Shown one piece after another: positions 13,324 through 22,689 of a stretch of 64,000 nt of DNA; position 1 is the first letter of the stretch; each line of letters opens with the position of its first letter. The notes beneath the pieces are model-generated. The model worked only from the letters and a program-made list of their open reading frames with translations. It searched no databases and had not been told where the DNA came from. The DNA comes from Eledone cirrhosa (Eukaryota). The stretch covers positions 315,084,001 to 315,148,000 of the forward strand of contig OZ024741.1 of NCBI GenBank assembly GCA_964016885.1, written 5' to 3'. A program made the translations under genes and the position numbers.

Positions 13324-13649
13324 ATATATATATACATATACATATATATATATATATATATATATATATATGTATATATATATATATATATATATATATA
13401 TATATATATATATATATATATATATATATATATGTAAGTATGTATGTACAACTACATTCATATACGTATACAAACGTACAGTAGTATGTATATATATGCA
13501 TACATGCACACATATATATGCACGTATCGGTTTACCGAACATTTATTATAATGCTTGGTTTGTTTGTTTGTAAACAAAGAAACCGCCCGAATTACGGCGT
13601 ACAGTGTTTAGGCAACCACGTCACCTTTTTGTTCAACACAGACACAGGA

Positions 13650-13692
13650 ACGATGTTCTAGTTTCAAGCTTATTAGCTATCGTCAGCATCGT
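13650..13692 (-). ncRNA. Minimal type I hammerhead ribozyme, cleavage triplet mutated (GAA)
   Basis: Minus strand ACGATG-CTGACGA-TAGCTAATAAGCTT-GAAA-CTAG-AA-CATCGT. Confidence 0.7.
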
Positions 13693-14099
13693 ATACCTTC
13701 ATGCCAGATGGTTGAACGTCTGAAAGTATATACTTTCCTTGTGCATATTAACGGCTGAGCAGCCTAATGTGCATATCGAGTGAGTTCAGTCGGCCGGGCG
13801 CACCTAAAATGATAAATGGAATAGAATGAAACGAAATTTCATTTCTCACTCTTATTACGGCACTTACTTAAATGTAAGTATGTATGTATGTACACGTACA
13901 TACATATATGTATACAGACGTACAGTAGTATGTATATATATACATACATGCACACATATATATATATATGCACGTACCGGTTTACCGATCATTTATTATA
14001 AAGCTCGATTTGTTTGTTTGTTAACAAACAAACAGCCCGAATTACGCCGAACAGTGTTTAGGCAACCACGTCACCTTTTTGTTCAACACTGACACAGGA

Positions 14100-14142
14100 A
14101 TGATGTACTAGTTTCAAGCTTATTAGCTATCGTCAGCATCGT
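14100..14142 (-). ncRNA. Minimal type I hammerhead ribozyme (one stem I mismatch)
   Basis: Minus strand ACGATG-CTGACGA-TAGCTAATAAGCTT-GAAA-CTAG-TA-CATCAT. Confidence 0.8.
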
Positions 14143-14548
14143 ATACCTTCCTGCCAGATGGTTGAACGTCTGAAAGTACATACTTTCCTTGTGCATATTA
14201 ACGGCTGAGCAGCCTAATGTGTATATCGAGTGAGTTCAGTCGGCCGGGCGCACCTAAAATGATAAATGGAATAGAATGAAACGAAATTTCATTTCTCACT
14301 CTTAGTACGGCACTTACTTAAATGTAAGTATGTATGTATGTATGTACACGTACATACATAAATGTATACAGACGTACAGTAGTATGTATATATATACATA
14401 CATGCACACACATATATATATGCACGTATCGGTTTACCGAACATTTATTATGGCTCCGTTTGTTTGTTTGTAAACAAACAAACAGCCCGAATTACGCCGT
14501 ACAGTGTTTAGGTAATCCCGTCACCTTTTGTTCAACACTGACACAGGA

Positions 14549-14591
14549 ACGATGTACTAGTTTCAAGCTTATTAGCTATCGTCAGCATCGT
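14549..14591 (-). ncRNA. Minimal type I hammerhead ribozyme, best-preserved copy
   Basis: 6 bp stem I ACGATG/CATCGT, CUGACGA core, AGCT/AGCT stem II above a U.U pair, GAAA, palindromic CTAG stem III, GUA cleavage site. Confidence 0.85.
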
Positions 14592-18590: not shown

Positions 18591-18827
18591 TATATATATA
18601 TAAATATACATATACATATATATATATATATATATATATATATATATATATATATATATATATATATATATATATATATATATATATATATATATATATA
18701 TATATATATATATATATATAAGTATGTACACGTAAGTAACAGCCGTACTAAGAGTGGGAAATGAAATATCGTTTCATTTTTTCCGTTTATATATATATAT
18801 ATATATATATATATATATATATATTTA

Positions 18828-19446
18828 TGTAAGTATGTATGTACAACTACATACATATACGTATACAAACGTACAGTAGTATGTATATATATGCATACAT
18901 GCACACATATATATGCACGTATCGGTTTACCGAATATTTATTATAATGCTCGGTTTGTTTGTATGTAAACAAACAAACAGCCCGAATTACGCCGTACAGT
19001 GTTTAAGCAACCCCGTCACCTTTTGTTCAACACTGACACAGGAACGTTGTACTAGTTTCAAGCTTATTAGCTATCGTCAGCATCGTATACCTTCCTGCCA
19101 GATGGTTGAACGTCTGAAAGTACATACTTTCCTTATGTATATTAACGGCTGAGCAGCCTAATTTGCATATCGAGTGAGTTCAGTCGGCCGGGCGCACCGA
19201 AAACGATAAATGAAATAGAATGAAACGAAATTTCATTTCTCACTCTAAATACGGCACTTACTTAAATGTAAGTATGTATGTATGTACACGTACATAAATA
19301 TATGTATACAGACGTACAGTAGTGTGTATATATATACATACATGCACATATATATATATATGCACGTATCGGTTTACCGAACATTTATTATAATGCTCGG
19401 TTTGTTTGTTTGTAAACAAACAAACAGCCCGAATTACGCCGTACAG
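18828..19446 (-). mobile_element. Retrozyme-like array, 1.4 units, HHR at 19044-19086
   Basis: Same unit as 13433-15046, with a stem I variant (ACGTTG on the plus strand). Confidence 0.8.
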
Positions 19447-20677
19447 AAATATTTATTTATTTACCAGTTTCACAGTTCTTATGCTTTTCAAAAGTAAAAT
19501 TGAGATGGACGTTTTGTGGAGTTTTAAACCTTCCATCTTAATTCTAATTTTGAAAAGCATAAGAACCGTGAAACCGGTAAAGGAAACAAATAAATATTCT
19601 TAAAAAGATCCAGCTGCATTTTCGATTTCACCTTTTTTCCATATATATATATACATATATGTGTGTGTTTGTGCGCTCGCGCGCGCGTGTTTGTCTGTGT
19701 GTGTGTGCCTGTGCCTGTGTCTGTGTCTGTATGTGTGTGCATGTGTGTCTATGTGTATCTATGTGCGTGTGTGTTTATTTAAATGTAAGTATGTCGCAAA
19801 TACATGTAATAACTGATAGAATAAGGTAAGATTTTGAAGGATTATATATGTTATTTTTCTTATAATATTGTTTGTTTATTTCATGATGTTTTTCAAGTTA
19901 TATTTAAATGAACTAAAGATCCATGTATATACTATACCCACACACGCGCGCGCACATACATATATATAAATATATATACGTGTGTGAGAATGTGTGTGTG
20001 TGTGTGTGTGTGTGTGTGTGTGTAAATATGATGTTCAATATAGAAATCGCTTCTATAGGACTAGAATAGTTTCATCCAAAGAAATCATCAGGAAACGGCT
20101 TTCCTGATGATTGTTTTTGAATGAAATAGTTCTAGTACTGTAGAAGTCATGTCTATATTAAACGTGATATTTACAGCCTACATTTGTATTTTCTTCCATA
20201 CTTACACCGGATACCTTCGATTGAATATAAATATAAATAAATGTATCTACACACACACACACACACACACACATATATATATATAGTATTAGTTATACTA
20301 TTTATGGTTATGTAAATACAAAAACCTTATGCAGTTATAAGTATTTTTTATACAAACCCTAAATAGTGGTAGGCAGTAATGTATTACTACCTTATTACCA
20401 GTAAGTTAAGTAGCTCAATGTAAAAACATTAGATGATTTACAGAGCAGTTATATGAAATATAAGAATCAAAGAACTGTTCAAAACATTATTGTGCTTACA
20501 GCTGTTTCCTCCAAACCGAGGTTTGGATTTTTCGGAGCAATTTATTAATGCATTGTCAGTTATATGACCTCCTTTTCAGCCAAGAGACATACCGATACAT
20601 ATGCAAATATTGTGGGTCAACATTCATATATTTCATATATATATATATATATATGTGTGTGTGTGTGTGTGTAGATA

Positions 20678-21447
20678 TATTGTATCTACTACTCCTTTTT
20701 ATAATATTTTACATAACTCTGATATTGTGTCAATTTAATTATTTCGATTATTTTGTCTCTCATAATCATAGAGTAACACTGGTTAAGGTCGACAACATAC
20801 AATCTCACATACTTGTGAAAAAAATATGTTTATATATACATGTATATGTATGTATACACATATATTTGTATACCTCTCATTATTGTCTCTAACTCCCTCA
20901 CGGTAGAGTAACCACGGAAGTATAGTGACTGCTTTCAAGCAAACACTATATACACTTCTAGTCAACCTTACCACCCCTCTGTAGCCTTGTATCATATCAA
21001 TATCTCCCTCCGCGTTCTGAGATATTTTCGCTGCTACAAGGGATTAATCCCCTTTCTTGACCGGTGTATCACGTGATAGAGTCTCCCTCCGCCTTTCTGA
21101 GATTTTCTCGCATGCTACGGACGTATTTAGTTAGGGCTCTTCCATGAGGTGCTCCCTTGATAAGCTGGCTTACCTCACAACATTCTCGCATAGTGACCAG
21201 CGAAACTGTACAGTCGGGACGAAAGGTAAAAAATAGGTATATTGTATCTACTACTCCTTTTTATAATATTTTACATAACTCTGATATTGTGTCAATTTAA
21301 TTATTTCGATTATCTTGTCTCTCATAATCATAGAGTAACACTGGTTAAGGTCGACAACATACAATCTTACATACTTGTGAAAAATATATGTTTATATATA
21401 CATGTATATGTATGTATACACAAATATTTGTATACCTCTCATTATTG
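20678..21447 (+). mobile_element. Non-coding element: ~208 bp direct repeats flanking a ~350 bp HHR-bearing core
   Basis: 20678-20886 matches 21239-21447. The HHR lies just before the second repeat. Confidence 0.7.
21153..21219 (+). ncRNA. Type I hammerhead ribozyme, U3-A8 core variant
   Basis: TCCC-TTGATAA-GCTGG...CCAGC-GAAA-CTGTACAG-TC-GGGA, GUC cleavage site. Confidence 0.8.
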
Positions 21448-21527
21448 TATATATATATATATATATATATATATATATATATATATATATATATATATAT
21501 ATATATATATATATATATATATATGTG

Positions 21528-22689
21528 TGTAAGTATGTATGTACAACTACATACATATACGTATACAAACGTACAGTAGTATGTATATATATGCATACAT
21601 GCACACATATATGCACGTATCGGTTTACCGAACATTTATTATAATGCTTGGTTTGTTTGTTTGTAAACAAAGAAACCGCCCGAATTACGGCGTACAGTGT
21701 TTAGGCAACCACGTCACCTTTTTGTTCAACACTGACACAGGAACGATGTTCTAGTTTCAAGCTTATTAGCTATCGTCAGCATCGTATACCTTCCTGCCAG
21801 ATGGTTGAAAGTCTGAAAGTATATACTTTCCTTATGCATATTAACGGCTGAGGAGCCTAATTTGAATATCGAGTGAGTTCAGTCAGCCGGGCGCACCGAA
21901 AACGATAAATGGAATAGAATGAAACGAAATTTAATTTCTCACTCTTATTTCGGCACTTACTTAAATGTAAGTATGTATGTATGTACACGTACATACATAT
22001 ATGTATACAGACGTACAGTAGTATGTATATATATACATACATGCACACATATATATATATATATGCACGTATCGGTTTACCGAAAATTTATTATAATGCT
22101 CGGTTTGTTTGTTTGTTAACAAACAAACAGCCCCAATTACGCCGTACAGTGTTTAGGCAAACGCGTCACCTTTTTGTTCAACACTGACACAGGAATGATG
22201 TACTAGTTTCAAGCTTATTAGCTATCGTCAGCATCGTATACCTTCCTGCCAGATGGTTGAACGTCTGAAAGTATATAATTTCCTTGTTCATATTAACGGC
22301 TGAGCATCCTAATGTGCATGTCGAGTGAGTTCAGTCGGCCGGGCGCACCTAAAATGATAAATGGAATAGAATGAAACGAAATTTCATTTCTCACTCTTAA
22401 TACGGCACTTACTTAAATGTAAGTATGTATGTACACGTACATACATAAATGTATACAGACGTACAGTAGTGTGTATATATATACATACATGCACACATAT
22501 ATATATGCACGTATCGGTTTACCGAACATTTATTATAATGCTCGGTTTGTTTGTTTGTAAACAAACAAACAGCCCGAATTACGCCGTACAGTGTTTAGGC
22601 AACCACGCCACCTTTTTGTTTTACTTACATTTAAGTAAGTGCCGGACTGAGAGTGAGAAATGTAATTTCGTTTCATTCTATTCCATTTA
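21528..22689 (-). mobile_element. Retrozyme-like array, ~2.5 units plus inverted fragment, HHRs at 21743-21785 and 22195-22237
   Basis: Paralog of 13433-15046 with the same diagnostic HHR variants in the same order. Confidence 0.8.

What the first reader, a model, noticed from the sequence alone, without database searches (positions are those of the whole stretch)
13433..22689. Retrozyme-like system: ~450 bp non-coding tandem units, each with a minimal dimer-type hammerhead
Seen: six HHRs (13650, 14100, 14549, 19044, 21743, 22195) on the minus strand, 449-452 bp apart within arrays, with a palindromic CTAG stem III. Two arrays end in an inverted partial unit, and all lie next to (TA)n. Established: minimal HHRs with a palindromic stem III can cleave as dimers, animal non-LTR retrozymes are tandem HHR units that yield circular RNAs, and tandem-plus-inverted ends are typical of Penelope insertions. 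Inference: this family could release ~450 nt monomers or circles and borrow RT from PLEs such as those in this window. I cannot tell whether this family has been described.
Basis: partly seen in the sequence, partly recalled or inferred. Interest (0 to 1): 0.85.

Follow-up and report, generated by a model that had tools for sequence, protein, structure and literature searches.

The report
Hammerhead repeat spread by Penelope machinery
A 450-base non-coding repeat carrying a hammerhead ribozyme motif has tens of thousands of relatives in this animal genome, and their ends bear the marks of Penelope-type retrotransposon insertion, so it is likely a new family of the known animal 'retrozymes', predicted to cut itself and borrow Penelope enzymes to spread.

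Summary
The window has three arrays of a 450-bp unit with six minus-strand type I hammerheads (HHRs). Four have an intact core; two carry U16.1A. The HHR is the canonical metazoan type, not the 'minimal' one. Arrays 1 and 3 are local duplicates of one insertion.

The genome holds 22,909 exact intact-core HHRs of this superfamily. In 85 insertions sampled by position, 46 have an inverted arm. Of 26 with both ends classifiable, 23 carry a ~60-bp 'tail' on exactly one arm, and ends abut (TA)n: the Penelope-like element (PLE) signature. No coding PLE used the unit as its terminal repeat in the loci examined. The window's Hydra-type PLEs share target and architecture but not sequence.

A second, very young 312-bp family keeps the same HHR with every helix re-spelled, which is strong evidence of selection on the ribozyme. 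Cleavage, transcription and circles were not testable, and the partner PLE was not found.

Verdict: a new member of the animal non-LTR retrozymes. The PLE link is already proposed in print; the end signature adds direct support. Earlier scan notes saw similar PLE-type ends in two other genomes.

The parts
13324..13433 (.). (TA)n at the tail-less 3' end of array 1
13434..14977 (-). Array 1: 3.5 tandem units of ~450 bp, 5'-truncated at unit position 245
13650..13692 (-). HHR copy with U16.1A (no GUA), predicted inactive
14100..14142 (-). HHR copy, core intact; predicted cut after 14106
14549..14591 (-). HHR copy, core intact; predicted cut after 14555
14106..14554 (-). Predicted 449-nt monomer between the two adjacent intact HHRs
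   Evidence: inference
14978..15047 (+). Inverted arm of array 1: little more than the ~60-bp tail, ending in (TA)n 15045-15076
18727..18790 (+). Separate tail stump with sister-subfamily alleles (G15C, T16A), ending in (TA)n 18788-18828
18829..19446 (-). Array 2: 1.4 units; 3' end at (TA)n, 5' end joined to a hairpin repeat
19044..19086 (-). HHR copy, core intact, one stem I mismatch
21448..21524 (.). (TA)n at the tail-less 3' end of array 3
21529..22620 (-). Array 3: 2.4 units, local duplicate of array 1
21743..21785 (-). HHR copy with U16.1A, predicted inactive
22195..22237 (-). HHR copy, core intact
22621..22690 (+). Inverted arm (tail) of array 3, ending in (TA)n 22688-22729
30188..34301 (-). 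Context, not part of the unit: broken Hydra-type PLE (ORF remnant 32216-34135, own HHRs at 30372 and 34219, one-sided ~100-bp tail)
40295..45091 (-). Context, not part of the unit: broken Hydra-type PLE (ORF pieces 42032-44420, own HHRs at 40495, 44671 and 44987, one-sided ~95-bp tail)

Best explanation
This is a non-coding, hammerhead-bearing 450-bp repeat family whose insertions carry Penelope-type ends, and it is likely a non-autonomous retroelement (an animal non-LTR retrozyme) copied in trans by a Penelope-like element's enzymes. Shown: the unit, the HHR, the copy number, the inverted arms, the one-sided tail, the (TA)n targets and the lack of an ORF. Inferred: (1) tandem copies are transcribed on the HHR strand; (2) two HHRs pair through the palindrome ACUAGU, cut after GUA and release a ~450-nt monomer that a host ligase would close into a circle; (3) the GIY-YIG nuclease and RT of a TA-targeting PLE (Hydra clade most likely, by abundance and shared ends) nick (TA)n, start at one of two fixed 3' points ~60 nt apart, and copy a circle or uncut multimer for a variable length, often adding a second, inverted arm; (4) arrays then decay and duplicate at DNA level, which made the three arrays and two dead HHRs of this window.
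For: Copy number: 22,909 exact 35-nt intact-core HHRs, reversed-pattern control 0; 2,123 of the window's own variant. End signature, from 85 of 86 position-sampled insertions mapped: 46 two-armed; of 26 with both ends classifiable, 23 tail plus no tail, 2 no tail twice, 1 tail twice (p 9e-5 against 0.5); 93 of 105 classifiable 3' ends have a microsatellite within 30 nt. The BLAST-best set gave 23 of 25, two of them the window's own arrays. This is the PLE pattern in PMC8557442 and PMC3846280 (passages). A 9-bp TSD flanks one non-microsatellite insertion (L064). Ribozyme selection: across 271 copies, stem I pair 3 is A-U 189, G.U 33, U.G 31 (255 paired); the common variants lie at N7, loop 2 and two stem I pairs. 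A separate 312-bp family keeps the U.U pair, loop UAAUAA, bulge UAU/U and a palindromic stem III while re-spelling every helix. Dimer need: closing stem III within one HHR costs ~5 kcal/mol, whereas the ACUAGU duplex gives -4.8; axolotl HHR_Amex2, also with a U.U at the base of helix II, cleaved much better as a dimer (PMC7229834). One haplotype per insertion: subfamily sites agree 698 of 761 within insertions against 63% between. No stop at the cut site: 29 of 30 places picked by the 20-mer 3' of it run on across it (many lie in the same arrays), which fits circles or uncut multimers.
Against: No expression, cleavage or circle evidence was obtained. 62 of 85 insertions hold a single HHR and could not release a monomer by two cuts. 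One stem I pair is broken (C.A) in 40 of 271 copies. The active fold is not the predicted minimum: the two-strand double hammerhead scores -17.4 against -20.4 kcal/mol for an inactive pairing, and the HHR fragment folds no better than shuffles. The monomer's strong self-pairing (z -5.5) comes from its low-complexity half: the opposite strand scores z -7.2 and unit 1-285 only -0.4. Within-insertion distances are not significantly below between-insertion ones (p 0.12 and 0.054). In the 2026 preprint only 1 of 9 Xenopus dimers cleaved in vitro. No PLE sharing the unit's sequence was found, and the ~60-bp tail is longer than the 30-40 bp reported for PLEs.
Confidence: 0.8

Rival explanations
1. 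The unit is only the pseudo-LTR of a coding PLE, and the arrays are its truncated stumps.
For: The ends are PLE-like. In L053 and L212 a unit joins a Hydra-type ORF or 3' UTR directly, on the same strand. The preprint found 24 of 57 Xenopus retrozyme families homologous to known TEs, nearly all PLEs.
Against: Of 30 fetched copies of the L053 PLE family, only L053 itself joins the unit there; the others shown continue in their own 3' UTR or other DNA (part of the printout was cut). Among 54 free 5' flanks the only real PLE coding hit is L064, on the opposite strand and inside a TSD, and no common upstream sequence emerged. In arrays the tail runs straight into the next unit, not into an ORF. 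No similarity to the window PLEs' 3' regions beyond low-complexity DNA. Only ~200 of more than 20,000 places were examined, so a rare parent is not excluded.
Confidence: 0.07
2. It is a PLE-mobilised non-autonomous element whose HHR is a passenger: linear uncut tandem transcripts are the template, and no circles form.
For: Copying runs through the cut site, as uncut RNA would allow. The monomeric HHR is predicted to be weak. Most insertions have one HHR. HHR-less Naiad PLEs spread well (PMC8557442).
Against: Compensatory helices, a conserved core and conserved loop/bulge in two otherwise unrelated families argue for selection on the active fold. Coral, mussel and axolotl retrozymes give circles (PMC7229834).
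Confidence: 0.1
3. It is a DNA-level minisatellite: arrays grew by unequal crossing-over from old solo inserts, as the 2026 preprint suggests for tandem birth.
For: Window arrays 1 and 3 are local duplicates with recombined units. One array of about 19 units has mostly dead HHRs and a repeated block of variants (L155).
Against: It cannot explain fixed 3' ends, inverted arms with one tail, or dispersal over many contigs. In the young 312-bp family both arms already hold several near-identical units. It accounts for later changes only.
Confidence: 0.03

Closest known systems
Animal non-LTR retrozymes (Cervera and de la Pena 2020, PMC7229834), especially axolotl Rtz_353 / HHR_Amex2 and mussel 350-390 bp repeats
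   Same: Non-coding tandem units of a few hundred bp, GC under 50% (37.6%), one type I HHR per unit, U.U at the base of helix II, short palindromic helix III predicted to need a dimer, thousands of copies, PLEs in the same genome.
   Different: Unit at the upper end of the 150-450 bp range. Inverted arms, a one-sided tail and (TA)n targeting are not mentioned in that paper's main text. Cleavage and circles are untested here.
Non-LTR retrozymes as non-autonomous PLE derivatives (Li, Clavereau, Pollet, bioRxiv 10.64898/2026.07.22.740005)
   Same: Same conclusion of PLE dependence; array 1 meets their 'active' rule of two consecutive complete HHRs.
   Different: They argue from co-occurrence and pLTR homology in vertebrates, and suggest tandems grow locally. 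Here no pLTR homologue was found; the evidence is the insertion signature, which 'tail' and 'target site' searches did not find in their text.
EN+ Penelope-like elements, Hydra clade (Craig et al. 2021, PMC8557442; Arkhipova et al. 2013, PMC3846280)
   Same: Partial tandems, 5'-truncated inverted arm, tail on one end only, (TA)n targets, HHR near the 3' end.
   Different: No RT or GIY-YIG ORF; tail ~60 bp, not 30-40 bp; no sequence link to any Hydra copy examined.
Putatively non-autonomous Chlamys elements such as MRC1 (PMC8557442, passage)
   Same: Non-autonomous PLE partners with multicopy head-to-tail insertions.
   Different: Green algae; share 3' sequence with their autonomous families; most Chlamys lack canonical HHRs.

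Membership tests
Animal non-LTR retrozyme | Tandem repeat unit of a few hundred bp | tested here: met
   Period 450-452; sister subfamilies 426-538 bp. 23 of 85 sampled insertions have two or more HHRs.
Animal non-LTR retrozyme | Type I HHR in each unit | tested here: met
   Six HHRs, four with intact core; 231 of 271 fetched copies intact, a sample biased towards HHR matches. Rfam score is below gathering level.
Animal non-LTR retrozyme | At least two consecutive complete HHRs (2026 preprint's 'active' rule) | tested here: met
   Array 1, HHRs at 14585 and 14136; not met in arrays 2 and 3.
Animal non-LTR retrozyme | No protein coding; GC under 50% | tested here: met
   HHR-strand ATG ORFs are 51 aa or shorter, apart from two that run into (TA)n; GC 37.6%.
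Animal non-LTR retrozyme | No PBS or PPT | not tested
   Not searched for.
Animal non-LTR retrozyme | TSD longer than 4 bp when present | tested here: inconclusive
   One clear 9-bp TSD (L064) among 54 one-armed insertions; the other candidates are low-complexity.
Animal non-LTR retrozyme | Transcribed, self-cleaving, accumulates as circular RNA | not testable with these tools
   No RNA data could be examined; needs bench work.
Minimal HHR of PLEs (PMC4209133) | No or vestigial helix III, long helix II (7-8 bp), short helix I, G10.1-C11.1 | tested here: not met
   Helix I 6 bp, helix II 3 bp on U.U (268 of 271), helix III 2 bp: fits that paper's 'canonical' metazoan type.
Autonomous EN+ PLE | RT plus GIY-YIG ORF flanked by the repeat as pLTR | tested here: not met
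   about 200 loci of more than 20,000 places examined.
PLE-type insertion | Inverted 5'-truncated arm | tested here: met
   46 of 85 insertions.
PLE-type insertion | Tail at one end only | tested here: met
   23 of 26 classifiable two-armed insertions, p 9e-5; 20 more had an unclassifiable end. Length ~60 bp.
PLE-type insertion | Microsatellite (TA)n targeting | tested here: met
   93 of 105 tail or no-tail 3' ends; no random-site control was run.
Partner of Hydra-clade PLEs | 3' sequence shared with an autonomous family | tested here: not met
   No match to the window PLEs or to two further HHR-bearing ends; other families not surveyed.

The most novel reading that the evidence does not exclude
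These arrays are a genomic record of rolling-circle reverse transcription: ribozyme-made RNA circles are copied round and round by a Hydra-clade Penelope enzyme, each arm of an insertion separately. The genome holds at least two such circle families with one selected hammerhead design, one of them (312 bp, 98-100% identical copies) probably still active. That would settle which enzyme moves animal retrozymes and give a minimal substrate for the unsolved PLE insertion mechanism.
Probability: 0.35. Interest if true: 0.65.

Novelty: new member of a known kind. Interest (0 to 1): 0.4.

Why it matters
Animal retrozymes are known, and PLEs are their proposed movers, on co-occurrence and terminal-repeat homology. 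This family adds a different kind of evidence: its insertions carry the PLE-specific one-sided tail and inverted arm. With more than 22,000 intact hammerheads it is a sizeable genome component. The young 312-bp sister family offers a small, probably active substrate to test circle-templated PLE retrotransposition. It is not a new class of element.

Tried and rejected
Rfam at gathering level: nothing. The E-value scan of the region listed only microRNA-like hairpins of microsatellites in the top 150 of 216 rows.

Sequencing runs: no RNA holder listed; four runs of unknown kind from one study hold the DNA. This is no evidence either way. No reads were laid, so expression, strand and cut ends stay open.

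Pile-up of 5' ends at the cleavage site, as a trace of in vivo cutting: none among 38 free ends and 96 inversion-junction ends; the sample was conditioned on holding an HHR.

Candidate autonomous parents: L053 (1 of 30 copies), L064 (insertion with TSD), L151, L163, L187 and L194 (unit and PLE separated by a TA run), L120 and L212. All were rejected as pLTRs. A template-switch chimera is not excluded for L053 and L212.

Monomer folding z-score as evidence: rejected, since it is not strand-specific. Pair counts on 15 hand-picked rows (95% paired, 2 pairs changed on both sides, 6 of 500 shuffles) are only illustrative.

One search's HHR descriptor had a bug and found 0 hits; it was redone. L139 gave no mapped hit and was dropped from the counts.

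Earlier-finding look-ups by sequence and by genome were empty. Paper searches found no description of this family. Repbase, Dfam and the papers' supplements were not seen and may list it.
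Full report
OBSERVATION. The unit is real: period 450 at 13434-14977, period 452 at 21532-22620, and 1.4 units at 18829-19446. Units are 91-96% identical to the reference unit 13878-14327. Six minus-strand HHR cores have C3 at 13686, 14136, 14585, 19080, 21779 and 22231. Two copies carry U16.1A and one has a stem I mismatch. A helix-checked descriptor finds 3 in the region and 0 in 200 shuffles. Rfam has no gathering-level hit; HH9 aligns weakly at the right place and strand. 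By the definitions in PMC4209133 (parts 1-2 of 4 read) this is a canonical metazoan type I HHR, not a min-HHR.

THE WINDOW'S ARRAYS ARE RELATED BY DUPLICATION. Arrays 1 and 3 share the same inversion junction and rare alleles position by position: three in the outer unit (including the dead-HHR change), three in the next, one in the partial unit and three in the tail. Array 2 shares two with the third unit of array 1. The surrounding 10-28 kb is a patchwork of duplicated blocks. The six HHRs therefore probably trace to one or two insertions.

GENOME-WIDE FAMILY. The host genome is 3.0 Gb; I did not identify it. Exact counts, all with reversed-pattern control 0: 2,123 for the window's 37-nt variant; 13,730 and 16,220 for 20-mers just before and just after the cut site; 22,909 for a 35-nt intact-core pattern allowing two variable positions. 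Subfamilies are 79-96% like the window unit, with periods of 426-538 bp. The 86 best-matching copies are a median 2.3% from their majority (a biased sample).

INSERTION ANATOMY. I fetched 90 stretches covering most of the first 100 exact matches along contig 1, removed 4 overlaps and mapped 85 of 86. 62 hold one HHR, 19 two, and 4 more. 46 have two arms pointing outwards, 38 have one arm, and one ran off the stretch. 3' ends fall in two classes ~60 bp apart, tail (56 ends) and no tail (49), with 25 others. Of 26 two-armed insertions with both ends classed, 23 have exactly one tail (p 9e-5). A BLAST-best set of 55 gave 23 of 25, including the window's own two. 93 of 105 classed ends abut a microsatellite; no random control was run. 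This is the structure given for PLEs in PMC8557442 (outline, passages and section 11) and PMC3846280 (passages). One insertion inside a PLE ORF has a 9-bp TSD. Units and arms of one insertion agree at 698 of 761 subfamily sites against 63% between insertions. They share rare alleles in 12 of 35 tandem and 6 of 32 inverted pairs against 4.7%, although overall distances do not differ significantly. No 5' ends pile up at the cut site, and 29 of 30 places picked 3' of it continue across. A cleaved linear monomer is therefore unlikely as the main template; circles and uncut multimers both fit.

IS IT A pLTR? None of 54 free 5' flanks has a same-strand PLE ORF or a common upstream sequence. L053 looked like ORF-UTR-unit, but only 1 of 30 fetched copies of that PLE joins the unit. 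The window's two PLEs have GIY-YIG hits below the Pfam cut-off. Their motifs fit the Hydra clade as described: CxCx5C in both, DKT and RWR in one. Both are broken, end in (TA)n and have one-sided tails of ~95-100 bp, but different HHRs and no similarity to the unit. They are the right kind of partner, not the demonstrated one. Neptune and Naiad PLEs also favour microsatellites.

SELECTION ON THE RIBOZYME. In 271 copies, stem I pair 3 is A-U, G.U or U.G in 253, and the other common changes are at N7, loop 2 and one CpG-type break of pair 5 (40 copies). These are few events inherited by many copies. Stronger evidence comes from a separate 312-bp family, unrelated outside the HHR. It re-spells stem I, stem II, the distal stem and the stem III palindrome (ACGCGU for ACUAGU) yet keeps the core, the U.U pair, loop UAAUAA, bulge UAU/U and the GUA site. 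Conserved loop 1 and loop 2 letters suggest the usual tertiary contact (recalled, not tested). Its copies are 97-100% identical, sit in (TA)n, and have a ~35-bp tail on exactly one arm in all 8 two-armed insertions with both ends intact among 13 shown. Variant patterns there are mixed: one arm is homogeneous for a private allele, another shows a 4-unit period. They do not decide between circle and multimer. Against activity: the active fold is not the predicted minimum, and only 1 of 9 Xenopus dimers cleaved in the preprint.

MECHANISM. Likely cycle: transcription of tandems, dimer-assisted cleavage, host ligation to a ~450-nt circle, then target-primed copying into (TA)n by a PLE RT/EN acting in trans, with a second inverted arm and a one-sided tail, followed by DNA-level decay and duplication. 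The RNA steps are borrowed from coral, mussel and axolotl retrozymes (PMC7229834, parts 2-4 of 6 read) and are untested here. I put about 0.8 on a PLE-mobilised retrozyme with a functional HHR, and about half of that on circles being the actual template.

NOVELTY. The kind is known. PLE dependence was proposed in 2020 and argued in bioRxiv 10.64898/2026.07.22.740005 (parts 1-3 of 5 read). Neither main text uses the tail or inverted-arm signature. Seven searches found no description of this family; repeat databases and supplements were not seen. Earlier scan notes report PLE-type ends on non-coding elements in two other genomes (unchecked). Verdict: new member of a known kind, interest 0.4.

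Noticed in passing
L216:2566-3034; L252-L281: Second, very young 312-bp hammerhead tandem family (97-100% identical copies) with two-armed arrays in (TA)n and a ~35-bp one-sided tail; a better bench substrate than the window's family.
   Followed up: partly
L155:1-8745 (G000:C1:70068000-70076745): Array of about 19 units of the 450-bp family in which most HHRs carry core mutations, with a repeated block of variants: DNA-level satellite growth from dead units.
   Followed up: partly
L053:1230-1920 and L212:4048-4553: Unit joined without a TA run to a truncated Hydra-type PLE on the same strand; either a template-switch chimera or an insertion with target deletion.
   Followed up: partly
window 10380, 28613, 29381, 48485; 11882, 16638, 17666, 20091, 24919, 26266, 35878: Further hammerhead-like cores of at least three other families; the genome is rich in PLE ends with family-specific tail lengths (about 60-100 bp).
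   Followed up: partly
window 16873-17098 and 19450-19645; also 11089-11307: Long near-perfect inverted repeat (MITE-like hairpin), several copies; array 2's 5' end joins one.
   Followed up: no
window 10600-28000: Patchwork of local duplications, many bounded by TA or TG microsatellites (for example 11089-12125 with 16900-17910, and 15045-16161 with 26444-27516).
   Followed up: no
window 38799-39371 (+): ISXO2-like DDE transposase fragment (PF12762, E 1.5e-11).
   Followed up: no
window 62055-63712 (-): Weak RT and zf-RVT hits of a decayed LINE-like element.
   Followed up: no
window 14255-14318 (-): In this unit variant the tail region reads like a short intron (GTAAGT ... pyrimidine tract ... 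AG), but neither splice site is kept in the family majority or all subfamilies; probably chance.
   Followed up: no
window 55009-56945: Tandem repeat of about 613 bp, roughly three copies, not examined.
   Followed up: no
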